From positions 4,526,001 to 4,590,000 of the forward strand of contig NC_087436.1 in the NCBI RefSeq assembly GCF_036321535.1: 64,000 nt of DNA, written 5' to 3'. The translations under genes and the position numbers were made by a program. This DNA is from Camelus dromedarius (Eukaryota). A model generated the notes under the pieces. The model was not told where the DNA came from. It made no database searches and worked only from the letters and a program-made list of their open reading frames with translations. Every line of letters begins with the position of its first letter. Position 1 is the stretch's first letter. This document shows positions 12,427 through 60,349 of this stretch, in pieces.

Positions 12427-12999
12427 CGCACACCCAACCACAGAACTAAATGCACTGAACCAAGTGACAGAATCAGGATCTTACTGGAAAGATGTAACTG
12501 CCCTGCAACCACACAACTGCATTTGCAAAGGAGTAGATTGGAAACCAAGAGAAGAAAACCATCCATGCAGACATCAGTTTCCCGTTTCTCCCAGGTGAAG
12601 TTTTTAACCACGGAAAACTAGCTTTTCCGGACCAGTGTATACTGGAAAACTTTTTTTTTTTAAGTGGGTCAAATTTTCGTTGAGTTCCCTCCCTTTTTTT
12701 TATTTTCCCGCTTTCTCTTCCTTTGTCCCCGTCTCCCCTCTGACTGCACCCAGTCACGGCGGTCGGGCGGGCGTTTGGAGGACTGGGTACCCTGCCCTGG
12801 TCCGGTCGTAGTGGCGGGGACTCGGCGCCGAGCTGCTTTTCCACGCGCAGGTTTCCACTCTGGCTGCGCCAGAAAGCGGGGAGCCGCCCCGGGAGACCGA
12901 CACCTGCTGGGGAAGGCGCGCTGCGAGCTGCCCCCAGTGACCTCCCCACGGTGCGCTTCAGCAGCTACTTTCTTTTTCAGTCTTTGTTGCAGGGGAGGG

Positions 13000-13370
13000 G
13001 AGGGGTTCCGAGGAGAAGTCGAAGGCATCTGGGAGAGGCGCTGCAAGGGATTCTCCGGGCCATGAGAGAGAGAGAGATCCGGAGGCACAGGCAGAGCCCG
13101 GGCAGAGCTGATTGAGCGCTGGGGCGCAGCGCGGGGAATCCGGTTTGCTGTGCGCCCCACCCCGCCTGTTGAGCCAGGAGACCGGACTTAAGCGCCGCGG
13201 CCGCGCGGGCGGTGGGTGCACCGGCGCAGGGACCCGCAGGTGCCACGGCAGGGTCCCCTCTCCCGCCCCCAAAGCCCACTCTTTGTGCGCTCTCGGTGCG
13301 GCTGTGCGAGGCGCGCCCCGGAGCTGCCGGCGATCCGGGAACGAAGCCCCGAGGTCCGGGAAGCCACCGA
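13000..13370 (+). other. GUCY1A1: Probable non-coding exon 1 of GUCY1A1 (start approximate)
   Basis: Consensus donor GCCACCGA|gtaagt at 13370/13371; preceding GCGAGGCGCGCCCCGGAGCTGC...AGCCCCGAGG resembles the human 5'UTR as recalled; the TSS cannot be fixed from sequence. Confidence 0.65.
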
Positions 13371-13988
13371 GTAAGTGGTCGCCGTGTCCCCGCCCCGGGT
13401 CGTGTCTCCCGGGTGAGCGCCCCCAGTCCTGGGCCGGTCCTCCTCCCTCCCCGCACCGGAAGCCTTCTTGCGCTCCCAGCTGCCCAGCCCCGGGGGCCGG
13501 GCCCGGTTCCCACGCCGGGGAGGAGCGAGGGAGCAAAGCAGACGGCGCCCGGGGCAGCTCACGGCCCGGGGGCCCCGCGGCGGCCGAGGGCGGAGGGCTG
13601 GCCGCGCTGGCGTCTGCGCTCGCGGGGCGCGAGCGTGAGGACGCGGGGGGCGCCGCGCGCTGCTCTCCCACGGCCGGGGCGCCGGGCAGCATCGCCTCCT
13701 CGGGAAGTCGGGGCGCCGGGGTCGCCTGGACCTCAGAGCCCGCGGGGACTGAGGCCGCTCCGGCTCCTCCGCAACTTCGTGCCGCCGGCGGCTGCTTGGG
13801 TGAGCGATTCTCCCTCCTCGGGAGCAGAGGGCTGCGATCACAGGGTCGCTCAGCGCGGGCAGCCTTCCGGGGGCGCCGCCCGGGGTTTGCCCGAGGCGTG
13901 AGAGTGAGTGTGCACGCGTGTGCGGGTGTGCAGGCGGGTGTGCGCGCGCGTTAATTACCGATTGGCGGTCTGACTTCCGTCCCCCGAG

Positions 13989-14010
13989 GACTGCAGCACT
14001 TTGAGGATCG
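13989..14010 (+). other. GUCY1A1: Possible non-coding exon 2 of GUCY1A1 (3' end uncertain)
   Basis: Branch-like ctgac plus ttccgtcccccgag|GACTGC acceptor; nearest good donor CG|gtgagc at 14010/14011; the exon may extend further. Confidence 0.4.
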
Positions 14011-16494
14011 GTGAGCCGGGGGTCGCCGCGGTCTCTGCGGGCCGGGTCGGTGCCCGGAGCCGCCCTGCGAGGGCTCGGCAGCCTCGCGGTGGCCTCTGTG
14101 TGGGGGCTGCGTTGCCATGCGGTCGTGCGATTTCAGGAGTCTTTCTTTTGCTCGCTTGTTTCACACGGTGGTTCCTTCATTTTGCACTTGATAAATAGTT
14201 TATATCTTCTGAAGTAAACCAGAAGGTGGAAGGCGTCAATTGTGGCTGAGGCATCTTGGTTTCCAACAGACTGCAAATCCCTCTGAATTTTAAATAGCAC
14301 AGGTCATATATATAGTTTTAAATTAGACCTTCACTTAAAACATATTGGTAGTGATTTTTCAAGGTCAGTCCTAAGGTGATTTCACTGAAGGTTTGCCTAC
14401 TTACTGGAGCTGGTCTTGACAAGAATATCTTTAACCCTCTGGTTAGGCGTAGGTAGACGCTGGAGCGTTCAGTAATGGTATAGATTTTCACATCTTGGTT
14501 CCTAGTGTAGAAATAATCTGTTGCTTTTCTTAAAATGGCTATGCTATTTTTTTTTCTGCAGAAGTCATTTCAGGTACTTTATGAAGGTATATTATGAAGA
14601 GTGGTAAAAATCAATAGCAGCAATGTAACAAAATATGAATGTCTAAAATTTCAAAGCAAACATTAATTTGTCAAAAAGGCAAGTAAATTTTATGCTTTTC
14701 AATGGCAGTAGTCTGTACTCTCTGTTCAGATTGAACAGCTGTCTGTGGATTGCTTCAGGGGGTCCCTGAAATTGTGTCTAAACATTTGAGTCACTGCATT
14801 TTTAAGGAGATAGCCCAGGGTCCTCAGATATCCAATATTTTTGACCCAACAGAAAAATAAGAACTGCAGAGTTAAAATATATCCTTTTCCAAGTCAAAAC
14901 AAGTAAGCTTTTTACATAAATACTAGAAAAAATTCTAAAATGATTAAATACTGTTACAGTAATTAAACATCTCACATAAAACAGACCCACTTGTATGTTT
15001 TTAAATGTATCAGTCAGGAAACTCAAGATGTTGAAGTTTATTTAATAGAAATCTGTAATGAATAGATGGGTACCTTCTTTCTCTTCTTGCGCCGTAAGAT
15101 CTATGGCATACAAAATAAGGATTTTACCTTTCTCTCTTTGAAACCCAACACAAACAGAAAGTACTTATGCTTTGTGTGATGTTTCACAGTGTATGAATAT
15201 AAATGGCCCCTCAAAGGCCCTCTTTCTAGATATCCAGGTATAAAATAACATGTCCAAGATAGGTTTCTGACATTTATGAGAATACAGGGGGTACTGTAGC
15301 TTCACAAGATTTGGTCCTCATATTTCTTATAACTGTGGCTTATTAAGTGATAACGCTGTAAGGCATTATTTGGAAAAAAAACTTTTAAAATTATCATCGT
15401 ACTAATAAAAACTAAGGAAGTGATAACTCGAATTGTTATTTTCATTATAAATGTCAGATTTGCCAGGAAGTTGCTCAGTTTTCTCTTATTTGCTAGGATG
15501 TATAACTTTTATGTCATTGATTTTTTTATCCCACTTAATTAGAAATATTTACCCAGGTGATTTAACCTTGAACACTGCTCTTGATTCCTTCTCTGCATAT
15601 TTGTAGAAGCAGATACACTTCCTTCTAAAATATCAGTAATTCCAATGGTTTTTTAGTTTCTAGGCCATCTAGAACTATATGCTAAGCATTCGTTAGGTGT
15701 CTGTTTTGGTTGGGTACCTCCATCTTGATACAGGAGGAGCTTCTGGCAGTTGTTAGGTCTTTAGATGATATATTTGTTGCCCATAGATTAGTTGACTTCT
15801 TTGGCACTGGAGTCATTTTGGGGCTATCCCGAATTCCATTTGCTTTTGTTTTTCTCAAGCAGTTTGGACGTGTCTGACCTATTTCATGTTTCTCTCCCCT
15901 GAGTGCAGGCCTGCAGGCTCATCCTCCTTACATAAGCCTTGAGGCTTACAGGGTCTGATTGGAATCATTCACCGGGAGTGAGGAGCTTCAGGCCGGGACA
16001 GCAGCGGGAGAGAGGGACCACCTTACACACCCCGAGGGGGCCCTGGGGCCTGACTCCCCACCATGACAGTGTGATTCTCTGCTGCTCGGACTTGCCTACC
16101 TGGAATGCTTGCTGGCCATCCGCAATCTCTGCATTAAAATGAACCCTCCCTCAGAAAAATCAGCGCAACTCAGGTTAAGTGGCACATCCCGCCCCCTCCT
16201 CACCCCAGGAGGAATCTGCAAGAAGACACAGAACACCCGGCCTTTGGGAGGGAGCACCCTGGGAAGGGACTCAGGCCTTTGGAACCAAGGAGAGCTTCCT
16301 AGTCCTGAACTTTTTGCGGGTGTGACGTAACTGTGTGTCCCCTTTCACCGCAGTTAGAAACACATGCTCCGGTGTCTGTGCTGCCACCACACTCAGCTGT
16401 CCCTGGGGGGGAGGGCAGCCTCGGCTGCTGGGACCTGGGGCCTCGTGGGCTTCTGGGGAGCCTCACTGTGCTGTCTCTGGAATTATTGACGTGT

Positions 16495-37387: not shown

Positions 37388-37489
37388 ACGCGCGGGTCAC
37401 GAGGGTCCCTGGTCTGTCGTGGCTTCTGTGTGTCTGTCCCACCTGAGAGCAGCTCCCTGGGGGGCCACCCAGGTGGGGCCGCCAGCACC
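37388..37489 (+). other. GUCY1A1: 5'UTR part of the ATG-containing exon of GUCY1A1
   Basis: Pyrimidine-rich acceptor ctgctcctgcctgtag|AC at 37387/37388, 102 nt before the ATG; similar to the human 5'UTR as recalled (GTGGCTTCTGT). Confidence 0.7.
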
Positions 37490-37753
37490 ATGTTCTGCAC
37501 GAAGCTGAAGGACCTGCAGATCACGGGGGATTGCCCCTTCTCTCTGCTGGCGCCGGGACCCGCGGCCAAGGAGCCGGCGGAGGCGGCGGCGGCGGCGGCC
37601 GGATGCTCGGAGGCCGGGACCGCAGCCCCGCGCGCGAGCAGGGGCGTCCCCGAGGGGCGCGCGCACGGGGGGCTTCCCCCCAGGAAGACCAGCCGCAGTC
37701 GCGTCTATCTTCAGACTTTGGCCGAGAGCATTTGCAAACTGATTTTCCCGGAG
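37490..37753 (+). CDS. GUCY1A1: Soluble guanylate cyclase alpha-1, first coding exon (aa 1-88, N-terminus)
   Basis: gccagcaccATG Kozak context; translation [23 protein letters not shown]...[24 protein letters not shown] matches the sGC alpha1 N-terminus; donor GAG|gtgagc at 37753/37754, phase 0. Confidence 0.97.
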
Positions 37754-38399
37754 GTGAGCGCTTGCCCTTTCGAGATGGCACTGATATTTTGAAGATGCTA
37801 AAAAAATGTTTTTCTAAGGAAAATGCGAACACTTGCTTTCTCACTTTCAGGGCTGTGGTGGATGTAGAGTATTTTCCAGAAACATATAAAAACATTCCTC
37901 TACAGGCATCGTGTTCTTGAATTGTGTTTCATCTTAAAATGTTTAAGATCTTGCACTCTGTCCTGCACTCTGGTGAGCTTGATGACTTGCTTAGTCTGTT
38001 GGCCTCAGCATCCTTACCTGTAAAATGGGAATGGTGACACCACCCACTCCATAGAGCCTCAATGTGCATGAAGTAAAACAATCCATAGCTCCGGCCATCC
38101 ATAAGGACCCATCCATTGTTAGCTGGTTTTTAGAGCTAAATTCCTCAAAGAATAACTTATTTTCTGCTGGGCTGTCCTGGTCTGTGTCCAAAGAGCATCA
38201 CACATTCCCTGCCAATTTGCTGAGGTGTCCTGCTGGCTCTGAGTTTGAAGTCTCCGCTCACGCCAGGCTCGACCTCATCCCTAAGTTGGGGTCAGGGACC
38301 CGCACCTGCCAGTACCTACCTGCCGGCAGCTGGGACATGCCTTGTTATAGTGAACAGCCTAGAGCCGCGCTGAGATCTGGAGCCCCTCCCTTAAGAGAC

Positions 38400-43782: not shown

Positions 43783-43844
43783 TTTGAGCGGCTGAACCTT
43801 GCCCTCCAGAGAACACTGGCAAAACTCCAAATACAGGAAAGCAG
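43783..43844 (+). CDS. GUCY1A1: GUCY1A1 coding exon 2 (62 nt; FERLNLALQRTLAKLQIQES-R)
   Basis: Acceptor cttttcttttccatcttcag|TTT, donor CAG|gtaagt; continues the frame of the previous exon; too short for the ORF track. Confidence 0.95.
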
Positions 43845-47173: not shown

Positions 47174-47232
47174 GAAATCTTTGGAAAGAGAAGACTTTGA
47201 AAAAATAATTGGGGACCAAGCAATTGCAGCAG
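47174..47232 (+). CDS. GUCY1A1: GUCY1A1 coding exon 3 (59 nt; KSLEREDFEKIIGDQAIAA-G)
   Basis: Acceptor catttcag|G, donor CAG|gtaata; phases 2 and 1 fit the neighbouring exons. Confidence 0.95.
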
Positions 47233-48838: not shown

Positions 48839-49554
48839 GAGTTCCGGTGGAGATCATCAGAGAGTCCCTGGGTGAAGAGCTTTTTAAAATATGTTACGAG
48901 GAGGATGAATACATCCTAGGTGTGGTCGGAGGAACCCTCAAAGATTTCCTGAACAGCTTCAGCACGCTCCTGAAACAGAGCAGCCACTGCCAAGAAGCGG
49001 AAAAGCAGGGCGGGATTGAGGACGGGTCCATCCTCTGCCTGGATAAGGACGAGGACTTCCTCAGTGTCTACTACTTCTTCCCCAAGAGAACCACGTCCCT
49101 GATTCTGCCCGGCATCATTAAGGCGGCGGCCCACACGCTGTACGAGACCGAGGTGGAGGTGTCCTCCATGCCCCCCTGCTTCCACGCGGAGGGCGGCGAC
49201 GTCCTGCAGCAGCCCTGCCTGCTCTACTCCGTCCGCGTCACCAGCGCCAGGCCCGCCCCGTCGCCGGCCCCGGGCAAGCCGCCGTCCTCGCTGGTGATCC
49301 CCGTGTCGCTCTTCTGCAAGACCTTCCCGTTCCACTTCATGTTTGACAGAGACATGGCGATTCTGCAGTTCGGCAACGGCATCCGGAGGCTGATGAGCAG
49401 AAGGGACTTCCAGGCGAAGCCCCGCTTCGAGGAGTACTTCGAGATCCTGACTCCCAAAATCAGCCAGACGTTCAGCGGAATCCTGACCATGCTGAACATG
49501 CAGTTCGTGGTGCGAGTGAGGCGGTGGGACAGCTCCGTGAAGAAGGCTTCCAGG
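48839..49554 (+). CDS. GUCY1A1: GUCY1A1 coding exon 4 (716 nt; pseudo-H-NOX, linker, start of PAS domain)
   Basis: Within ORF 48796-49569 ([22 protein letters not shown]...[12 protein letters not shown]...KKASR); acceptor gctttcag|GA, donor AGG|gtaagg. Confidence 0.97.
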
Positions 49555-50456
49555 GTAAGGAGAACCTAATACTGCTGCTAATACGAAATCAGCGATTTCA
49601 CCTTTAAAGTATAGGAAGCGAAAAAGGTAAAAAAGAGATGCTTCGCTCCAGATGTCAATTAAACATTTCTGTTTAGAATGATTCTCAAATACTTTTCAGG
49701 CTGGATGGAATCAGTTGAAAATAAGATCTTGCTGCATTCATTTCTTGCTTACCTAACCCCTCACTTCACAGATGCACGTCGCATGCAGTCTAGCTTTTAA
49801 AATCCTTATGGAGTATTTTATAACTGAAGTAGAAACGTGTTTATATAAAATACATTTTCAATCATCACAAATAGCTGACTTAATTTAGAATAATAAGAGG
49901 TATTTTTCGACAGCCAACAAAAACGGCTTCTTTCTTACAGAAGGCAGCCAAATGGATTTTAAATCAGTATTTAATAGACATGGAAAAAAATCAATAATAA
50001 TGTATTGCATTAATTGTTAGAAAATGTGGGAAAAACTGCTTTGCTTACATCTCATGATAGAGTACCACGGTGATTATTTAGAAAGGACGTTTGTGAAGTG
50101 GTAGCTGACGGTACAGGCAGAGCTCACAGAGAGGCTCAGGACACATCTGGCTTTTAGACACGCGTAACCTGGCAGACACACTGTCTGTTCCCACAGGAAG
50201 ACAGCTTTGCTGCTTTTTTTATCATAAAAATAATATAGCCAAGTGTTTAAAAAATAGGTAATATTTAAAGGTGTTTATTGCAAAATCAAAAAGCATTAAT
50301 TATATACATTTCTGTTTGAAACAAAAAGTACTATTTGCAACTTATTTTTTTTAATCACTAAACAGTATATTTTGAGCATCTTTCCATGCCATTATATCCC
50401 CATCTGTTTCACTTTTTTCCAGGGCTGGGTAATATCTCATTGTACCGTTGTCTTCC

Positions 50457-50620
50457 ATTTTATTTTATTTTATTTTTTATTGAAGTGTAGTTGATTTACA
50501 GTGTTAGTTTCAGGTGTACAGCAAAGTGATTCAGTTACACATATACATACATACGTATATTTTCTTTTCAGATTCTTTTCCATTACATGTTATTACAAGA
50601 AACTGAGTATAGTTCCCTGT
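50457..50620 (-). mobile_element. Short L1 3' end
   Basis: (TTTTA)n tail plus TTGAAGTGTAGTTGATTTACA. Confidence 0.8.
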
Positions 50621-51103
50621 CCTTCACTTTATTTAACTGCCCACTGTGGAAGGACGTCTGGGCGGCTGTCAACCCTTTGCTGTGGTAAACACACACGCGC
50701 AGGTCTGTCCCACTCACACGAGTAGACCTTGTGATGCTGGGTGATCGCATGAACCCTCCCCTGGCTTGGGGCTCCCTTGGGGCAGCCCCTTCTGCAGCTG
50801 TAGAAACGGAAGCATCAGCCTGCCTCGTAGTGAGAAGGCCCGAAGCAAGTATTTTTTGCATTGCTGATGGAAAATTAAGATTTCCATGTAGTGTTTATCC
50901 CTAAATATTCTCCAAGTGTCTGCGTGCATCTTAGAACGCATAGTAAATTACACTGTGAGAAAGTGTATCATTTGCTGGCAACAAGTAGAAAAACATCAAG
51001 CTGAAAAACTAAGGGATTATCTCTGTATCCACGTCCTCACTTTGTCTCCAGAAGGTGCTGGAGACCTGAATAAACCGCCACGCGGTTCTCCTTGGCTCCA
51101 CAG

Positions 51104-51589
51104 GTCATGGACCTCAAGGGCCAGATGATCTACGTGGTGGAGTCCAGCGCCGTCCTGTTCCTGGGGTCGCCCTGCGTGGACCGGCTGGAGGACTTCACGG
51201 GGCGCGGGCTCTACCTGTCGGACATCCCGATCCACAACGCGCTGAGGGACGTGGTCCTGATCGGGGAGCAGGCGCGCGCGCAGGACGGCCTGAAGAAGCG
51301 GCTGGGCAAGCTGAAGGCCACGCTGGAGCAGGCGCACCAGGCGCTGGAGGAGGAGAAGAGGAAGACGGTGGACCTGCTCTGCTCCATCTTCCCCGGCGAG
51401 GTGGCGCAGCAGCTGTGGCAGGGCCAGGTGGTGCAGGCCAAGAAGTTCAGCGACGTCACCATGCTCTTCTCGGACATCGTGGGCTTCACGGCCATCTGCT
51501 CCCAGTGCTCGCCGCTGCAGGTCATCACCATGCTCAACGCGCTCTACACGCGCTTCGACCGGCAGTGCGGGGAGCTGGACGTCTACAAG
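51104..51589 (+). CDS. GUCY1A1: GUCY1A1 coding exon 5 (486 nt; PAS end, coiled coil, start of cyclase domain)
   Basis: [10 protein letters not shown]...[22 protein letters not shown]...[12 protein letters not shown]...LDVYK; acceptor ctccacag|GTC, donor AAG|gtagcg. Confidence 0.97.
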
Positions 51590-51922
51590 GTAGCGGGGGA
51601 GGGAGTCTTCCCTGGGCGGGGGAGCCGCTTTCCCCGCCCGCGCGCCCCGTCAGGTCTGGGTGGAGGGCGGGCCGTCGCGACCTCAGCGCGTGGCTGCCCG
51701 CTGTCCAGCCTGGAATCGCTCGGAATCTGTGCAGAAACCGATGATTCCGTGCAAGGACCGCCACCGCGCCCTCCCCAGAGAGTAAGTGGGTGGGGGTGGG
51801 GCCCCGGGGAAAAGGGGCGTGTCGAGGTCAGTGAACTGACACTTGACCATGAACACTGAGTAGATTCAGCATGAGACGGACCAAAGTGTAACTCGTCTGG
51901 GGAGGATGTATCCTTCCATCTG

Positions 51923-52054
51923 AATGTTTGGTTTTGTTTATTGGAGGGGGGAGGTAATTAGATTTGTTTATTTATTTAATGGAGGTACCGGGGATTGAAC
52001 CCAGGACCTTGTGCCTGATAGGCAGGTCCTCTGCCACTGAGCTCTACCCTCCCT
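51923..52054 (-). mobile_element. tRNA-Ala-derived SINE (Vic-1 type)
   Basis: Same core; flanked by direct repeat CATCTG (51917-51922 / 52055-52060). Confidence 0.85.
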
Positions 52055-54960
52055 CATCTGTAAAAGCAAAGGAGTGTGAGGAGTATACAAATTGCCTTGT
52101 GCCAAGTGAATTCAGTACAGAGTCAGTGTGATATTTTTCATGGCCAGTAACAGACACCAGGCCACCTGCTTAAGGTGTTCTTGTACAGAGGCCAAGGGCA
52201 GAAACATCGGGACAGGGAGGTCTGTCTTCAAATCATTTCTTCTACCTTACTTGCCTTGTAAGTGGAGAACGTTAAGTAACCTTTCTCATTTCTAGAGCAG
52301 AGAAAATAATATACACCCACAGAATTTATATCTGTGGTCCATCAGTCAGCAGGGTTTGTTGAGTGCCTTCGAGGTACCAGCCATCATTCTAGGCACTTGG
52401 GATGTACAGAGAGCTAATGAAGAGATCTCATGTTCTTCCTGTTTCTTTAGAAGTGAAACTTTTTTTTTTTTTTTACTGATTTAAAAGTATTTTGCATTAT
52501 TCTCAATATTGGTGTTGAGAATAAAGCATGCTTCTCATATATGTGGTTTGAATCATCTTTTAATTGGCCACATAAAAATCTGGCATTTCAGAGCTTAAGC
52601 CAACATGAAATAAATAGATTATTGAAGAACAAACAAAAATTATTTATGGGAATATATAAGCCCCAATCTAGATGCTCAAAGTAAAACTTTCCTTTTTAAA
52701 AATTTCTAACAGGAAATTCCAGGCAGAGCTATGATTCCCTTGGGGGGAAAAAAAAGAGGGCCTTGTATAATTACAGATAAAATAATTGGCTTCAGTTAGG
52801 TTCAGCTTGGTGGCCTCTTGTGGAATTTGCTGTATTTATCTGTAGACAGTTTACGCCTTGAGGATGTCTCCTCTCTGGGAACTGTGGTTAGGAAGTCTTA
52901 CTGTCTTTGGCAGACTGCTATGATTGCCAGCACAAGCAGCCACTTCTAGAAGTTTCACCTTGCTGACACTTTAAAAAACGCGGTCATTCCTCTCAAGTGT
53001 TTGGAATCTGTCCTTGCTGCAAGGCTGGAAGCCCCAGAATCCGCTGGTTGGCTCGGCATCCGGAGCGGGTGCGTCTGTCTGTCCGCATCTCACCTCCTCT
53101 GCTCTCTGACTTTGCAGAACACCTGGAGCGGTTGTAGGTAAACAAGGATGGGTCTTGACCTTGGAATAAGCAAACTCAAGATACAAGGAATGTTCACCAT
53201 AGGCTGACCTGTGGGGGTGATGGCTTCCAGGAGCAGTCAGTTTCTTGTTTCTTCCAGTACCTGGTGGTACCGGGACTTTGTTCCGTTTCATTTTTTTTTC
53301 TGTCTTTCAATCTTTTGGTCATTTTTTCTGCTTATTTCCGTATTTACATATCTGTTGTTTTAGCAAATACCTACCGGTCGTCCAGCATTTGCCCGCATGG
53401 TGGGTACAGTCCCTGTGAGGGGGGTTCACATGTCCACATGTCAGGGGAGGGGCGGCACCTGGATAGGGGCACAGGACAGTTTCCTGTGACATGGTGGACA
53501 TGCGATTCCTCTCCGGTGTGTGTGGGGGGGTACAGCAGCACAGGGAACAGACTCCCAGCACCACGGAGGGGTGAGGGCGCCCCTCTCCTGACTAGTTCCA
53601 CCCACTGAGCACCTGTGATGTGTCAGCTGTTGTGCTGAGCGCTCCTTCCGTCTGCACTGGAGGAAAAGCTTCTGGAGGCACTGCTGCCTGGTTCCTCCAT
53701 GGGTGGCTGTTCTGGGCACGGGGGAGACAGGAGGTGATAAGCAGAGAGCTTGCGCTTCACGGGGCAAAGAAGGACAGAGAACAAGTGCGTAAGGTTACAG
53801 TGTTCCCGTCGCTGGGCTGCTCTGGCGGGGAAATGGGGCAGGTGTCGGGGGAGACAGCGGAAGGTCAGGGGCGAGCACTGTTCACAGACGCCGTTGGCCT
53901 GGGGAAGTGAGGGACCAGGAGGGGTGCTCCCGGCAGAGGGAGGGGAGAGCAGGTGGGGGCACGTGTGGTACGTTTGAGGGACAATCAGAGATGCTGGGAC
54001 AGAGGGAACAAGAGGGAGGATCAGGAGGCCGAGTCAGGGAGCAGCAGAAAGGCGGGCAAGAACTTCAGGGCATTTTAACGGCTGCAGCATTTATTCCAAG
54101 TGAAATAGGGAATCGCCAACTTAGCCTCCCTTTCTCACCTCCATCTTTCCATACTGGGGGCTTAGGATAAGAGTGGCGATATGATCTGATAAGTTACAGT
54201 AAATATTTAGAGGGGAAGAAAATCTCACCTGTCACTATTCGGTGGCCTATTTGTGGGTTTAAATTAACCATTAGCTTTGTACTTAGAGTCCCAGATAAAA
54301 ATCGCTGGTAACATGACATAATACTAATGTACATGAATTTGTGTAACAGCTTGACTTCCAGTAGCTTTCCAAACACCATGGTTTCTGCCTCCTGGTTTGA
54401 CATTTTGGTTTCCATACTTTGTGATTAATACTCATGTAAACAATTTATCATGGCTGTGAGGACCCCCCAAAATCCTTTTGAAAACCTCTAACCTTGTTAA
54501 CCTTGCACATCTTTACTAAATTTATCTGACATTGACTGAGTAGTGGCTTTGTTCAAAACACTGTATTTTATGCTGAGATGCTGTAAAATCATCCAATAAC
54601 TTTAAGCAATTTATTATTAATCCAAAGTACATCATTTGTTTCTACAAAGCCATTTTACATGGCGGGGAAAGAAAGGTGAAATGGCATGGTGAGTGAGTGG
54701 CAGGTCTGGGAGCTGGAACCCCTCCTGATCCTGAGTTCATGGGGCTGTGGTCCCTCTCAGCGCAGCCCATGATGCAAGGCTCAGAGACCTGTGACTTTCC
54801 TGAAGAGGAAAGCCTGTTCTTGGAGGATATGATTTACTCTGATGTTCCATTGGCCCGAACCCTGAGATTTCTGCTGTGTGCTTCTGAGTGCCCGCTCTCT
54901 GATGTGCACGGTGGTGCTTCCCAAGTGCCTGTTTTAACGTGGAAAATCTCTCATGTGCAG

Positions 54961-55104
54961 GTGGAGACCATTGGCGATGCGTACTGTGTGGCTGGGGGGT
55001 TACACAAAGAAAGCGACACTCACGCCGTCCAGATCGCGCTGATGGCCCTGAAGATGATGGAGCTCTCTGACGAAGTCATGTCGCCCCACGGGGAGCCCAT
55101 CAAG
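54961..55104 (+). CDS. GUCY1A1: GUCY1A1 coding exon 6 (144 nt; cyclase domain VETIGDAY motif)
   Basis: [48 protein letters not shown]; acceptor tgtgcag|GTG, donor AAG|gtgagg. Confidence 0.97.
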
Positions 55105-56974
55105 GTGAGGCAGCCTCGTCCTGTCGTGAGAGTCCACGTGGTTGGTCAGTGATCAGACGGGCGGTGCCCAGCGCGGGCTTGGTGGCAGAGAGCAGCGTCT
55201 CCGGCTAGGTCAAGCAGGAAGGTGTTTACCACGTGGTATTTAGTGGCTTACAGAATCGCGGAGAGGACCAAGAGTCTGTCTACACCTCGCTCGCTCAAAA
55301 AATGGGTCCCAGAGTGACACTTCAGAACCACTGCTTTCTCTGTGATCTGGTAGCTGGCTCCACAGCTCCACAGCCACAGTAGGGAAACCCTTGTGCTCAG
55401 AAAGTTGCTGTCTGTGCTGCTGGTTTCCAGGACAGAAGGGCCCCTCCTATGATTTCAACCAGCAACACAGAGATCCTGCATCATGACTCTCACAAGATGA
55501 GTGACTGGAGTCTGGGCTGCCTCTAAGCTTGCGAGAGAAAACCCAGAGGCTTCCGCAGCTGGGCTCACATGTGTAACCAGCGGAAGGGCAGGCACGGCAG
55601 AAATCCAGCTCCCAGATGTCACACAGGGTATCTGAGTCTCCAACCCTGAGTACATGCAGCAGCCTCGAGGGAGTTGGGAAAATGTAGTTTTTAGTTTTCC
55701 AATCCCAGCAGGGGAGGAATCACAGTAGGACAGAGGTGACTGCTAACCCAGTGTTTTCTAGGGCACATAAAATTCCACAATTTCTAGATGAGCCGGATCC
55801 CAGAATAATGGTGTCTCCTGCAGACGAGAAAGTCAAACTCACATGCCAGCCGTTGGTCTGCTAGGTATTACATGTGCAGAGTATTTCGATCCGTCCCACA
55901 TGTAGTGAATCTGCCACTTAATTTTTATAGAGTAGCCTCTATTGATAAACCTTCAGAAATGGGCCTTGGGAGTGATGTGGAATCCTATCTGGGGTGCTGT
56001 AAAACATAGAGAAGAAGGGAAAATGAGACGTTTAGTCCTGGTGCTCTCCAGTGTTAGTAGAAGCCACGTGTTTGAGTCTTCAGGACTGGTTTCTAAGTCA
56101 GCTGTCGTCCCACTGTGTGCTGATGTGTGATACACTCCTCTGCATTTCGAGGTCTGCGACCGCAGGCCTATCACTGTGCACTGATTCTGTGCGTTGGAAT
56201 TTGGATGAAGCCCAGCGGGGATGCCTTTTCATTCCTCACGAGACCTGGTACCCGGGCTGAGAGCAGTCAGATGGGTGAGGCCATGTGGCATGGCTGGATG
56301 GTACCCCTTGGACCAGGGACCCCTTCCAAGGTGCCTGCTTCACTCACCTGCCTGGGGCCAGAGCTGGGGGTGGCTGAGGACGGGCTCAGCTGGACTGTCG
56401 GCCCAGGTCCTTACACGTGTGCTCAGGCCCTGCAACCTCAGAGCAGTCACGCTCCTTACCTGGTGACTCACGTCCCAGGGAACCAGGTTGGTGTCAGCCA
56501 CACGATCTTTTATGACCTCGCCTAGGAGATACCCAGTGACACGTCCATTATATTCTGTTGGTCAGAGCAGTCACACACTTGCCCAACAGGAAGAGTGTGA
56601 AATAATTCTCAACTGTTTTAAAAGCATCACAGCATCTGACTTGTCCAGATGCTTAATTTCTGTAATTTTTTTAGAGGAGAATTATGTTCGTTTGTTTGTT
56701 TTTTGGTGAGGAGACTCATAACATCAAAGTAAATGCTTAAAGTATCCAGATTAAGAATCAAGCCAGGGATTTCCACATAAATGGGTTTCGTTACTAAGAT
56801 GTGTACGTTTGGGGCAGGGGGATTAGTGACATGATTTTTGATGTTTGCAGAAATGTACTTTTAGAGTTTGGCCATTGCAAGAATTATTCATAGCGAGTTT
56901 CCGAGATAATTACCTGGGTGATAATAGTTCAGCTTTACTGACCTGTAAAGGGAGACGTTAAACATACCTTTTTA

Positions 56975-58570: not shown

Positions 58571-59668
58571 GGCAGACTGCTGGTTATTCCTAATACAACT
58601 CTCCTGATTCACTGCCTAGTGCTTCTGTTGGAAAGTTTCGCAGAATTCATGATTTGACGTGTTACAAGCAAATGATTCTCAAAAGTTTCTAGAAGAGCTC
58701 TGAAATCAACTGAAAAACTAAGGAGACTGCAGTTTTCGGATTTCTAAATTATATCTAAGCTCCTGAGTACTTAGCCTTTGTTCAAAATACGCATCTCTAA
58801 TAAGACTTTAAAAAAATGGTCAACTGAACATGGAACTCGGAAATAATGCACATGGTGTCCGATTGTTGTTTAAAACGTCCCGCTTTCACTTGCTTTGTTG
58901 TAGCAGGAATTTAGCAGCTAGTGCATCCTCTGGGATCCTCAAGCGCTCAGATCTTCTAGGAGATCCCGGTTGAAAACAGTCCGCCTTGATTGCTCTGCAG
59001 ATCGTTGATAACTTCCAGGATCCCTACACCGCAGTGTATCCTGGCTGCCTCTCGCACCCAGACCCGGCCCGACTGTGCTTTCCGTGGGTCTGGACTTTCT
59101 TAGCTCACATGTACACAGTCACTGAAGGCCAGGCCTCGGCAACCCCAGCTTTCTGCTGCTTCCTGAAATATTACAATACGCTTTCTCCGCTTGTTGGTCA
59201 TTTAAATAGGGAGGAAGTTTGGCATAAAGTTCTTTGAAAGCAAGATACCTAAAAGCCCCGTTCTCTGTATCCCCAGAGCTAGCTCGTTACCTGCCTCTGA
59301 CAGTGTTTCAGGAATAACTTCTGGGCTCCAGAAGTCTTGTCTCCCTCACCTGAGGAACAGAAGAGTTTACAGAAACGGTCCATGGACGCGGTGTCTGGTT
59401 GCTATGGTGACTGTGATGGGTGTGTGGGATTTTGGTTCAGATGCTGAAGACAGTGGAGAGAAAGCTGCCCTGGGTAACAGCCCTAAGGACATACACGGAG
59501 AAGGGTTACAGGTGTGACTGACCCTCACTAGTCGCTGCTGATCGGAAGTGAGGAGGAGCGGAGGTGCGAGCGAGGAGTCAGTCAGTCAGACAGGGCACTC
59601 ACACAGCTGCGACGAGGGGGCGTGTGTTACCAGTGACCAGGAACACTGTGCTCCTTTTTTGCTTTCAG

Positions 59669-59823
59669 ATGCGAATTGGACTGCATTCCGGGTCAGTTTT
59701 TGCTGGAGTTGTTGGGGTTAAAATGCCCCGTTACTGTCTCTTCGGGAACAATGTCACCTTGGCGAACAAATTCGAGTCGTGCAGTGTGCCGCGGAAAATC
59801 AACGTGAGCCCCACCACGTACAG
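59669..59823 (+). CDS. GUCY1A1: GUCY1A1 coding exon 7 (155 nt; cyclase domain); CDS continues beyond the window
   Basis: [52 protein letters not shown]; acceptor ttttttgctttcag|ATG, donor CAG|gtactg; no terminal exon recognised in 59824-64000. Confidence 0.96.
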
Positions 59824-60349
59824 GTACTGCAGCCCCCAGCGCCCGAGGTCTGCTCATCTCATTTACCTCCGCTTGTCGCTGTCCCATCGGTTTGTTTCAC
59901 TCTTCGTACCTTCCTCTCGCTTAGGTAACCTTAAAGGAAAAGAGAAGCAGTAACTCTTATCATCCTGGCTTTAACCTTCTGTCAACTATTCATTTGCCTC
60001 GGGAGAACGCCTCTCCTGAGGTGTCTGTCGCCAGGCTGTGACCCCTGATGCGCATCCTGCCTTCCCCGTTTCAAGGCGTGTTACTTCTCACACTGCCCGG
60101 ACAGGTGTCCTGCAGTACAACTCTGGCACTCACTTCCCAGAGTTAGCACCCACCCGTTAGAGGGCGTGGTCCCCCACAAGAATGCCCTTAATTCAGGTGC
60201 CTGCTGTGGAAACTTTGGTTTTAAAAATCCAACTGTCATGGAAATCCTCGAAGGGCAAAAAAACTGTTCCAGATCGATATGGTCACTGACTTACCTCAGG
60301 CAAGTTCACCTTTCTGTTCTCAGAGGTGACAGTCCTAGAGCACCTTCTT

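What the first reader, a model, noticed from the sequence alone, without database searches (positions are those of the whole stretch)
51104..51830. A 486-nt exon in which all 162 codons end in G/C, with the GC peak spilling into the intron
Seen: codon by codon, 51104-51589 has no A/T-ending codon (162/162 GC3) and uses CpG-ending codons that are normally rare (GCG, ACG, TCG, CCG). The GC/CpG richness continues ~240 bp into the downstream intron. The exon at 47174-47232, 4 kb away in the same mRNA, has only 4 of 19 GC-ending codons, and the surrounding introns are AT-rich. Selection on translation should act mRNA-wide and stop at exon borders. Inference: a long-lived recombination hotspot driving GC-biased gene conversion, and/or a new unmethylated intragenic CpG island in this lineage.
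Basis: partly seen in the sequence, partly recalled or inferred. Interest (0 to 1): 0.75.

Follow-up and report, generated by a model that had tools for sequence, protein, structure and literature searches.

The report
GC-saturated exon in camel GUCY1A1
One exon of the dromedary gene for the nitric-oxide receptor enzyme (soluble guanylate cyclase alpha-1) has G or C at the end of every one of its 162 codons, most likely the footprint of recombination-driven GC-biased gene conversion rather than of selection, and it is an extreme example of a known process.

Summary
Window 51104-51589 is a coding exon of dromedary GUCY1A1 (human residues 363-524). It has GC3 162/162, against 363/466 in the other six coding exons in the window. 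A CpG-rich GC peak (51001-51920) runs about 240 bp into the downstream intron.

It is not a one-exon oddity. Coding exons 1, 4, 6 and the 3' half of 7 also sit on CpG-island-like peaks (GC3 0.79-0.85, with gradients inside exons). Two exons of neighbouring GUCY1B1 reach 0.85-0.90.

The state is derived relative to a bird orthologue (66/162) and the camel's own paralogue GUCY1A2 (78/162). Amino-acid changes private to camelids run W>S (about 15 against 1.5) and are shared by Camelus and alpaca.

CpG-ending codons are not avoided (18 of 29 NCN codons). This argues against codon selection and for an unmethylated, gBGC-driven island.

Best reading: a lineage-specific, long-acting gBGC hotspot. It is a new member of a known kind.

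PRDM9 status stayed unresolved. Silent sites are more saturated in exons than in adjacent introns, and gBGC alone does not fully explain that.

The parts
51104..51589 (+). GUCY1A1 coding exon (fifth coding exon in the window; human sGC alpha-1 residues 363-524: end of the HNOBA/coiled-coil region and start of the cyclase domain). GC3 is 162/162.
51590..51830 (+). Intronic continuation of the GC/CpG peak: GC 0.71, 25 CpGs, o/e 0.84, no codon periodicity. A 5' splice-site-like AGAGTAAGT lies at 51782.
51001..51920 (.). The whole CpG-island-like peak around the exon: 920 bp, GC 0.64, CpG o/e 0.79, 74 CpGs.
48839..49554 (+). Coding exon 4. GC3 is 202/239, with an internal gradient from 10/20 at the 5' end to 20/20 in three successive bins mid-exon. 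The CpG-island-like peak at 48951-49580 lies almost wholly inside it. Intron GC drops to 0.37 immediately after it.
37490..37753 (+). Coding exon 1 (start codon), GC3 75/88, on peak 37411-37830. It encodes an Ala/Pro/Gly/Arg-rich N-terminus specific to camelids.
54961..55104 (+). Coding exon 6, GC3 38/48 (12/20 rising to 8/8), on peak 54841-55350.
59669..59823 (+). Coding exon 7, GC3 32/51 (7/20 rising to 10/11), on peak 59481-59920.
43783..43844 (+). Coding exon 2, GC3 11/20, with no CpG peak. Internal contrast.
47174..47232 (+). Coding exon 3, GC3 5/20, no CpG at all.
51943..52053 (-). tRNA-derived SINE copy (Rfam tRNA match at 51980-51051 read as 51980-52051, minus strand; 11-14 look-alikes in 184 kb). 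It bounds the old, unique sequence that carries the peak. A second repeat block lies at 50459-50623.
12651..14240 (.). Large CpG island (1590 bp, GC 0.69, o/e 0.92). Presumed GUCY1A1 promoter or 5' UTR island, from position only.

Best explanation
The exon belongs to dromedary GUCY1A1, which encodes soluble guanylate cyclase alpha-1. Its GC3 saturation is the footprint of strong, localised GC-biased gene conversion (gBGC).

Proposed mechanism. Meiotic recombination events initiating in or next to this exon repeatedly formed heteroduplex DNA. Mismatch repair favoured G/C over A/T alleles. As a result, W>S changes fixed at nearly every site where the protein tolerates them, at a few where it barely does, and in the neighbouring intron. 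The resulting CpG-dense stretch now has the composition of an unmethylated CpG island. That would both spare its CpGs from decay and, by analogy with PRDM9-independent CpG-island hotspots, keep attracting recombination. This feedback would explain the saturation. The same process acted on exons 1, 4, 6 and 7 and on two exons of neighbouring GUCY1B1, in a region 4.5 Mb from a chromosome end. At least part of it predates the split between Camelus and alpaca.

Shown here: gene identity, the counts, the peaks, the spill into the intron, the gradients, the lack of CpG avoidance, the W>S direction of camelid-specific amino-acid changes, and the low GC3 of a bird orthologue and of the camel paralogue.

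Inferred, not shown: that recombination is the cause, that the island is unmethylated, the feedback loop, the timing at synonymous sites, and the length of time over which the process acted.
For: 1. Identity. The exon matches PDB 6jt0_A, human sGC alpha-1 residues 363-524, at E 5e-101. It carries the Pfam domains HNOBA and Guanylate_cyc. It is 100% identical to Camelus proteins, and GUCY1B1 lies downstream.

2. The force is spatial, not mRNA-wide. GC3 per coding exon is 75/88, 11/20, 5/20, 202/239, 162/162, 38/48 and 32/51. The last exon has 25/68. There are gradients inside exons 4, 6 and 7.

3. The force acts on non-coding DNA. The intron flank has GC 0.71 and CpG o/e 0.84 without codon periodicity. 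CpG-island-like peaks lie on exons 1, 4, 5, 6 and 7.

4. This is not codon optimisation. 18 of 29 NCN codons end in CG, and 19 CpGs straddle codon borders.

5. The state is derived and not required by the protein.
- The same exon, with the same splice borders, in a bird genomic contig (L009) has GC3 66/162, CpG o/e 0.22 and flanks of 30-40% GC. At 92 third positions the bird has A/T where the camel has G/C. The reverse cannot occur, because every camel codon here ends in G/C.
- The camel paralogue GUCY1A2 has GC3 78/162, o/e 0.12 and flanks 0.28-0.33.

6. Amino-acid changes run W>S.
- At 20 sites where the camelid residue is absent from 18 other eutherian rows (one of them the flawed Homo entry P0023), none needs an S>W change given the camel codon.
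- By a clade-by-clade count, Camelidae have 22 private changes, W>S 15.0 against S>W 1.5. Ruminantia have 10 (3.0 against 4.8), Cetacea 8 (3.9 against 1.2), Carnivora 3 and Equus 3.
- The exon-5 protein is identical in three Camelus species and in Vicugna.

7. Regional effect. Two GUCY1B1 exons have GC3 70/78 and 69/81. The locus lies at 4.53-4.59 Mb of a 123-Mb contig.

8. Precedent in print.
- PRDM9-independent hotspots at CpG-island-like sites coexist with PRDM9 in most of 52 mammals and evolve with hypomethylation, according to PMC11161765 (abstract read).
Against: 1. No mammalian outgroup DNA could be obtained. The synonymous W>S excess on the camelid branch, which is the decisive test, is untested. 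The exon could already have been GC3-rich in earlier mammals.

2. Silent sites in exons are more GC-rich than the introns that touch them.
- At the borders of the five GC-rich exons, exon GC3 is 135/180 against intron GC 300/540 (Fisher p = 3e-6).
- Exon 5 has 20/20 against 32/60 upstream and 47/60 downstream.
- After exon 4 the intron falls at once to 0.37-0.38 without any young repeat there.
- At equilibrium this would need B of at least 4.6-5.0 in the exon against 1.6-2.0 in the flank. Pure gBGC predicts continuity, so something exon-specific may add to it.

3. All five CpG-rich peaks in the coding part of the gene sit on exons, which occupy about 8% of that stretch. This is unexplained.

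4. W>S-biased amino-acid change is not exclusive to camelids. Manis shows 9.2 against 2.2 and Molossus 7.4 against 2.2.

5. Outside the variable N-terminus the camelid signal is modest: 14 changes, W>S 7.5 against S>W 1.3.

6. Saturating about 157 silent sites needs a very strong or very long-acting drive, which is unusual for a large mammal (my own estimate, not computed from data).

7. The one dromedary-private change seen is S>W: R185Q, CGG>CAG, in exon 4.

8. ASIC5, the next gene, is not saturated (GC3 124/207).
Confidence: 0.6

Rival explanations
1. The high GC3 is old. GUCY1A1 exons were already GC3-rich in the ancestor of cetartiodactyls or of placental mammals, through earlier gBGC, and camelids merely kept or completed it. 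The mechanism is the same, but it is not a camelid novelty and needs no unusually strong drive.
For: - No mammalian outgroup DNA was seen in any call.
- W>S-biased amino-acid change also appears on the Manis and Molossus branches, which suggests recurrent gBGC in this gene.
- A fish-like orthologous exon (L010) has GC3 107/161 with AT-rich flanks.
- Saturation is easier to reach over a longer time (inference).
Against: - Camelids have the most private amino-acid changes of the multi-species clades (22 against 3-10) and the strongest W>S bias.
- Ruminants and whales keep ATG or ATH codons (M or I) where camelids have GTN, at exon-5 positions 11 and 17.
- The bird orthologue has 66/162.
- An old GC3 of 100% would still need a continuing force, because introns are 45% GC.
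Confidence: 0.2
2. Selection on synonymous sites. G/C-ending codons in these exons would be favoured for mRNA stability, export or translation, or for exon definition in long AT-rich introns. The intronic GC would be a by-product.
For: - Exon silent sites are more GC-rich than abutting introns (135/180 against 300/540).
- All CpG-rich peaks in the coding part of the gene lie on exons.
- Both subunits of one enzyme (alpha-1 and beta-1) carry GC3-rich exons.
Against: - GC3 ranges from 0.25 to 1.00 within one mRNA and changes gradually inside exons.
- The last exon has 25/68.
- The codons used include the CpG-ending ones, 18 of 29 NCN. From general knowledge, not a call, these are the least used in mammals.
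- 241 bp of non-coding intron are at GC 0.71 with o/e 0.84.
- Amino-acid changes go the same W>S way.
- The paralogue encoding a 78% identical peptide has GC3 78/162.
Confidence: 0.1
3. Ectopic conversion of the exons by an intron-less, GC-rich copy (a processed retrocopy that had evolved in a GC-rich region). This would give exon-limited GC enrichment.
For: There are sharp drops at some exon borders, for example after exon 4.
Against: - No retrocopy is present. A six-frame search of the whole assembly with the exon-5 peptide found only the gene itself, GUCY1A2 (78% identity) and more distant cyclases.
- The peak extends 240 bp into the intron.
- Gradients start inside exons.
Confidence: 0.03

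Closest known systems
[quoted passage not shown] 2020). Source: PMC12290510, Mol Biol Evol 2025, passages read.
   Same: W>S changes cluster at exon scale. Nonsynonymous W>S changes accompany them. Several exons of one gene are affected and the effect persists past a speciation.
   Different: Those cases were defined by substitution mapping on a dense rodent tree. Here only the end state is seen. The saturation (162/162) is extreme, and the host is a large mammal in which gBGC is expected to be weak (expectation from general knowledge).
PRDM9-independent recombination hotspots at CpG-island-like, hypomethylated sites in placental mammals (Joseph et al. 2024, PMC11161765; abstract and the PRDM9-annotation passages read), and the GC peaks of dogs (PMC4053742, PMC4350167, PMC3861134; search listing only).
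   Same: CpG-island-like sequence coincides with a gBGC footprint. A stable location would allow long accumulation.
   Different: Those hotspots are mainly promoter-like. Here the peaks sit on internal coding exons. Camelids are not named in that paper's main text (0 hits for camel, Camelus, Vicugna, alpaca and Tylopoda). Hypomethylation and recombination were not measured here.
Fxy (Mid1) in Mus musculus, whose 3' part moved into the pseudoautosomal region and rose steeply in GC3 with W>S amino-acid changes. Recalled from Perry & Ashworth 1999, Montoya-Burgos et al. 2003 and Galtier & Duret 2007. No passage was seen here.
   Same: Part of a conserved gene becomes nearly GC3-saturated, with protein changes in the W>S direction, in one lineage.
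   Different: In Fxy, as I recall it, introns rose too and the cause is a known relocation into a region of obligate crossover. Here most intron sequence stays AT-rich, and the only positional hint is a location 4.5 Mb from a contig end.
The general mammalian pattern that GC3 exceeds flanking intron GC in GC-rich genes. Recalled from Duret & Hurst 2001 and the isochore literature. Not seen here.
   Same: Exon silent sites are richer in GC than adjacent introns.
   Different: The step here is large (1.00 against 0.53 and 0.78) and lies inside a 45% GC gene, not a GC-rich isochore.

Membership tests
GUCY1A1 (soluble guanylate cyclase alpha-1) orthologue | HNOBA and class III cyclase domains; closest to alpha-1 and not to alpha-2 or beta-1 | tested here: met
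   Pfam HNOBA at 1.5e-32 and Guanylate_cyc at 3.5e-16. PDB human alpha-1 at 5e-101 against beta-1 at 3e-39. The camel alpha-2 exon is 78% identical and lies on another contig.
GUCY1A1 (soluble guanylate cyclase alpha-1) orthologue | Conserved exon structure and tandem arrangement with GUCY1B1 | tested here: met
   Seven coding exons with AG/GT borders translate to the Camelus protein. The bird contig has the same exon-5 borders. GUCY1B1 exons lie 33-68 kb beyond the window's end.
gBGC tract or hotspot footprint | Excess of W>S over S>W substitutions on the branch, at synonymous and non-coding sites | not testable with these tools
Only an unpolarised comparison with a bird was possible: 92 bird-A/T against camel-G/C third positions (the reverse cannot occur, since the camel exon has no A/T-ending codon).
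gBGC tract or hotspot footprint | W>S bias also at nonsynonymous sites on the same branch | tested here: met
   20 strict camelid-specific sites, none S>W. Camelidae W>S 15.0 against S>W 1.5, with controls run on eleven other clades or species. Manis and Molossus show a weaker bias too.
gBGC tract or hotspot footprint | The effect ignores coding status: it extends into flanking non-coding DNA and forms a spatial peak | tested here: inconclusive
   The spill into the intron (GC 0.71 over 241 bp) and the gradients inside exons meet it. The step at exon borders (135/180 against 300/540) does not fit a smooth peak.
gBGC tract or hotspot footprint | Elevated meiotic recombination at the site | not testable with these tools
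   No map or population data. The only hint is the position 4.5 Mb from a contig end.
CpG island | Sequence criteria: at least 500 bp, GC at least 0.55, CpG o/e at least 0.65 | tested here: met
   51001-51920: 920 bp, GC 0.64, o/e 0.79. 48951-49580: 630 bp, 0.61, 0.79.
CpG island | Unmethylated in the germ line | not testable with these tools
   Indirect only: there is no CpG depletion, with NCG 18 of 29 NCN codons and o/e 0.82-0.84.
Translational or codon-usage selection | Acts on the whole mRNA, stops at exon borders, and favours the commonly used codons | tested here: not met
   GC3 ranges from 0.25 to 1.00 among exons and the last exon has 25/68. The intron flank is GC-rich. CpG-ending codons are in the majority among NCN codons.
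PRDM9-less lineage (dog-like stable hotspots) | PRDM9 absent or pseudogenised | tested here: inconclusive
   - Three searches of this assembly found no PRDM9-type exon.
- The only SSXRD match is an SSX6-like gene.
- The 19 PR/SET matches look like other PRDM genes. Those names are my reading from recalled sequences.
- A PRDM11-exon query found no extra paralogue.
- Against this, Baker et al. 2017, supplementary file 1, lists RefSeq KRAB-SSXRD-SET models with intact catalytic tyrosines for C. dromedarius, C. bactrianus and V. pacos.

The most novel reading that the evidence does not exclude
Camelids carry unusually long-lived recombination hotspots that act independently of PRDM9, or act in the absence or weakness of PRDM9. 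These hotspots are anchored on CpG-dense coding exons. A feedback between exon CpG density, germ-line hypomethylation and gBGC drives 'runaway' GC islands on exons inside AT-rich genes. GUCY1A1 and GUCY1B1 would be the first examples. The exon-limited saturation would then reflect a real targeting of recombination or of GC-biased repair to exons.
Probability: 0.15. Interest if true: 0.7.

Novelty: new member of a known kind. Interest (0 to 1): 0.4.

Why it matters
- It is a very clean natural example of how far a non-adaptive drive can recode a highly conserved enzyme gene. All 157 free third positions of the exon are now G/C, and a few conserved residues have changed in the W>S direction.
- Branch-site and dN/dS scans in camelids are prone to read such loci as positive selection in a nitric-oxide signalling gene, so a documented gBGC footprint is a useful warning.
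- If other mammals prove to have ordinary GC3 here, the strength and duration needed for saturation in a large-bodied lineage would constrain models of hotspot lifetime.
- The excess of exon over intron silent-site GC would give a concrete locus at which to test whether gBGC or its repair machinery is stronger in exons.

Tried and rejected
1. Outgroup DNA.
- The search for related loci in metagenome contigs gave 6 loci. Only a bird-like one (L009) and a fish-like one (L010) are alpha-1 orthologues, and none is a mammal.
- Scans of genome contigs and viral contigs found no relative.

2. Sequencing runs.
- The look-up of sequencing runs listed 24 runs. The DNA runs all carry one organism label (A).
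- The RNA runs hold 0.30-0.66 of the sampled words.
These shares are therefore no evidence of expression or of presence in other species.

3. Primers as a sample of outgroup third positions. Five papers were opened (from the listing). One human primer pair was found and it did not look like coding sequence on a reading by eye. It was not aligned to the exons. The route was dropped.

4. Earlier scan notes: nothing relevant.

5. Literature.
- No relevant paper turned up on gBGC in camels ('GC-biased gene conversion' + 'camel': 67 papers hold both terms, 15 listed, none relevant among those seen).
- Nothing relevant on GUCY1A3 or GUCY1A1 in camels.
- Nothing relevant on PRDM9 in camelids.
- The supplement of PMC8892340 could not be read and may list camelid PRDM9 status.

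6. PRDM9.
- The search of representative proteins with a PRDM11-like exon and Pfam scans of 38 of its 150 listed hits yielded no KRAB/SSXRD-bearing PRDM9 to use as a query. The question stays open.

7. Rejected readings.
- Overlapping structured RNA: Rfam finds only the SINE's tRNA-like part.
- A coding extension of the exon into the intron: no periodicity.
- A young repeat causing the GC drop after exon 4: none found.
- Assembly artefact: identical protein in four camelid species.

8. The Homo row (47 private changes) comes from an old 717-aa entry (P0023) that looks error-ridden. I ignore that row, but P0023 still counted among the comparison species for the other clades and among the 18 outgroup rows.
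Full report
**What is there.**
The window is G000:C1:4526001-4590000 of a 2.3-Gb assembly. Contig length (123,284,173) and 100% identity of coding exon 1 tie it to Camelus dromedarius.

The stretch 51104-51589 translates without a stop. It matches human soluble guanylate cyclase alpha-1 residues 363-524 (PDB 6jt0_A, E 5e-101, six differences). It carries the end of the HNOBA domain and the start of the cyclase domain.

Using the Camelus protein, I placed seven coding exons with canonical borders: 37490-37753, 43783-43844, 47174-47232, 48839-49554, 51104-51589, 54961-55104 and 59669-59823. The last coding exon lies 1.5 kb beyond the window. GUCY1B1 exon matches lie from about 33 kb (clean ones from about 39 kb) to 68 kb beyond it.

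- GC3 is 162/162. Without Met and Trp codons it is 157/157, and four-fold sites are 82/82.
- The six other coding exons together have 363/466. At that rate 157/157 has a probability of about 9e-18.
- GCG, ACG, TCG and CCG make up 18 of 29 NCN codons. 43 CpGs give o/e 0.82.
- The first 241 bp of the downstream intron have GC 0.71 and o/e 0.84, with equal GC at all three phase positions, so they are non-coding.
- A CpG-island scan returns 51001-51920 (920 bp, GC 0.64, o/e 0.79).
- Exon 47174-47232 has 5/20 G/C-ending codons, or 4/19 for whole codons.

- The same scan puts CpG-island-like peaks on coding exons 1 (37411-37830), 4 (48951-49580), 6 (54841-55350) and 7 (59481-59920). Their GC3 values are 75/88, 202/239, 38/48 and 32/51.
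- GC3 changes gradually inside exons. Exon 4 goes from 10/20 to three successive bins of 20/20. Exon 6 goes from 12/20 to 8/8. Exon 7 goes from 7/20 to 10/11.
- Other GC-rich 300-bp stretches in the window have low CpG o/e (0.28-0.42) apart from four 5' stretches at 0.58-0.92 (the promoter island among them), and are not exons.
- The last GUCY1A1 exon has 25/68.
- GUCY1B1 segments range from 0.42 to 0.90. Two reach 70/78 and 69/81. Some low rows rest on an imperfect gene model.
- ASIC5, the next gene, has 124/207.

**Is the state required by the protein, or ancient?**
- A 22-kb metagenome contig (L009) carries the same exon with the same splice borders. Its peptide is 98.8% identical to several bird proteins.
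- In L009, GC3 is 66/162 and CpG o/e is 0.22. The flanks are 30-40% GC. Exons 4 and 7 have 86/242 and 16/59. The exon-6 figure of 31/65 includes some intron.
- At 92 of 152 same-amino-acid codons the bird has A/T where the camel has G/C. The reverse cannot occur, since the camel exon has no A/T-ending codon.
- The camel's own paralogue GUCY1A2 has a same-sized exon, 78% identical in protein. Its GC3 is 78/162, its o/e 0.12 and its flanks 0.28-0.33.
- So neither the fold nor the gene family demands GC3.

**Lineage.**
- I could not obtain any mammalian orthologous DNA.
- Proteins are therefore the only lineage evidence. The exon-5 peptide is identical in C. dromedarius, C. ferus, C. bactrianus and Vicugna pacos.
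- Within exon 5, camelids alone have Val at positions 11 and 17, where others have Ile or Met. They have Gly at position 98, where most eutherians have Cys or Ser. All of these are W>S changes. K86R, N116D and Q153R against human are shared with other orders.
- Across the 628 residues in the window, there are 20 sites where the camelid residue occurs in none of the 18 other eutherian rows (one of them the flawed Homo entry P0023). Given the camel codon, none needs an S>W change.
- A clade-by-clade count that uses no codon knowledge gives the following:

| Clade | Private changes | W>S | S>W |
|---|---|---|---|
| Camelidae | 22 | 15.0 | 1.5 |
| Ruminantia | 10 | 3.0 | 4.8 |
| Cetacea | 8 | 3.9 | 1.2 |
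| Carnivora | 3 | 1.0 | 1.3 |
| Equus | 3 | 1.0 | 1.0 |
| Manis | 12 | 9.2 | 2.2 |
| Molossus | 13 | 7.4 | 2.2 |

- Without the variable N-terminus, Camelidae have 14 changes, W>S 7.5 against S>W 1.3.
- After the camelid split the few changes are mixed. Examples are alpaca V250A and H59R (W>S) and dromedary R185Q, CGG>CAG (S>W).

**Mechanism.**
The following features are what GC-biased gene conversion predicts, and what selection on translation does not:
- the patchiness within one mRNA;
- the gradients inside exons;
- the non-coding spill;
- the W>S direction of protein change;
- the free use of CpG-ending codons.

The absence of CpG depletion suggests that the peaks are unmethylated in the germ line.

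Published work offers a ready frame. [quoted passage not shown] PRDM9-independent hotspots at CpG-island-like sites coexist with PRDM9 in most mammals studied, are more stable, and evolve with hypomethylation (PMC11161765, abstract; no camelid in its main text).

A feedback between CpG density, hypomethylation, recombination and gBGC would explain saturation. This is inference.

The locus lies 4.5 Mb from one end of a 123-Mb contig. That hints at a recombination-rich position but shows nothing by itself.

**What does not fit neatly.**
- Silent sites in exons are more GC-rich than the introns they touch. At the borders of exons 1, 4, 5, 6 and 7 the counts are 135/180 against 300/540 (p = 3e-6).
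- Exon 5 has 20/20 on both sides, against 32/60 upstream and 47/60 downstream.
- After exon 4 the intron is at 0.37 at once, with no detectable young repeat there.
- In equilibrium terms the exon needs B of at least 4.6-5.0 and the flank only 1.6-2.0.
- All five CpG-rich peaks in the coding part of the gene lie on exons.
- A general excess of GC3 over intron GC is known in mammals (recalled). Its size here leaves room for an exon-specific component, such as weak selection on exon GC or stronger biased repair in exons. I could not test this.

**PRDM9.**
- The assembly's only SSXRD match belongs to a KRAB-SSXRD gene named SSX6 in NCBI.
- The 19 PR/SET matches look like other PRDM genes. These identities are my reading, partly from recalled sequences. 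The locus I checked has zinc fingers split over several exons, unlike PRDM9.
- A PRDM11-like exon used as query found no further paralogue.
- Yet supplementary file 1 of Baker et al. 2017 lists RefSeq KRAB-SSXRD-SET models with the three catalytic tyrosines for both Camelus species and for alpaca, with no zinc-finger array in the listed architecture.
- The conflict is unresolved. I draw no conclusion from it.

**Verdict.**
The feature is real, statistically extreme and multi-exon. It is best explained by localised, long-acting gBGC on CpG-island-like exons of GUCY1A1, derived at least relative to birds and to the paralogue, and probably on the camelid stem. It is a new member of a known kind. 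The decisive test is synonymous and intronic substitution mapping against other mammals, and it remains to be done.

Noticed in passing
window 37490-37753: Coding exon 1 encodes an Ala/Pro/Gly/Arg-rich N-terminus that differs strongly from other mammals. Eight of the 20 strict camelid-specific sites lie here. Camelids differ among themselves in the length of an Ala run. An older RefSeq protein (P0006) differs from the window by a block that looks like a frameshift, while the newer one (P0122) matches 100%.
   Followed up: partly
G000:C37:77887805-77887885 and the whole assembly: The only SSXRD motif found in the assembly belongs to an SSX6-like KRAB-SSXRD gene. No PRDM9-type SET or SSXRD exon turned up in three searches. 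Baker et al. 2017 (supplementary file 1) nevertheless list KRAB-SSXRD-SET RefSeq models for camelids. The cause is either a limit of the search, an assembly gap or a real difference.
   Followed up: partly
G000:C1:4652676-4652909 and 4655220-4655462 (GUCY1B1): Two GUCY1B1 exons, which encode the parts homologous to alpha-1 exon 5, have GC3 70/78 and 69/81, CpG o/e 0.60 and 1.03, and flanks at 0.54-0.59 GC. Other beta-1 segments are at 0.42-0.77.
   Followed up: partly
window 51943-52053 and 50459-50623: Copies of a tRNA-derived SINE (Rfam tRNA match at 51980-52051, minus strand; 11-17 look-alikes in 184 kb) flank the unique sequence that holds exon 5. The GC peak ends about 100 bp before the downstream copy.
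   Followed up: partly
window 49006-49008: The dromedary has Gln (CAG) where C. ferus, C. bactrianus and alpaca have Arg. This looks like a CpG transition (S>W) private to the dromedary, in the less GC-rich 5' part of exon 4.
   Followed up: no
window 51590-51868: The exon-5 reading frame stays open for 92 codons into the intron. A strong 5' splice-site-like AGAGTAAGT lies at 51782. Using it would add 195 nt (a multiple of three) from the exon end to its GT, if 51782 is the first base of the printed 9-mer. There is no coding periodicity, so the open frame is probably a by-product of GC richness.
   Followed up: partly
alignment (proteins P0136 Manis, P0025 Molossus): The pangolin and a free-tailed bat also show W>S-biased private amino-acid changes in sGC alpha-1 (9.2 against 2.2 and 7.4 against 2.2). 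This hints that the gene is hit by gBGC in several lineages.
   Followed up: no
L009 (metagenome contig, 6486 bases held): A bird genomic fragment with GUCY1A1 exons 4-7 packed into about 5.6 kb sits in a metagenome collection. It is presumably host DNA. It was used here as an outgroup.
   Followed up: partly
window introns 37754-59668: Intronic CpG o/e is 0.39 (0.43 for the whole window). That is higher than the 0.2-0.25 I recall as typical of mammalian bulk DNA. Young CpG-rich SINEs may contribute.
   Followed up: no
protein P0023: The entry 'guanylate cyclase [Homo sapiens]' (717 aa) shows 47 private differences in the alignment. This is far more than any other species and looks like an old sequence with errors. 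I disregard its own row, but it was still counted among the comparison species.
   Followed up: no
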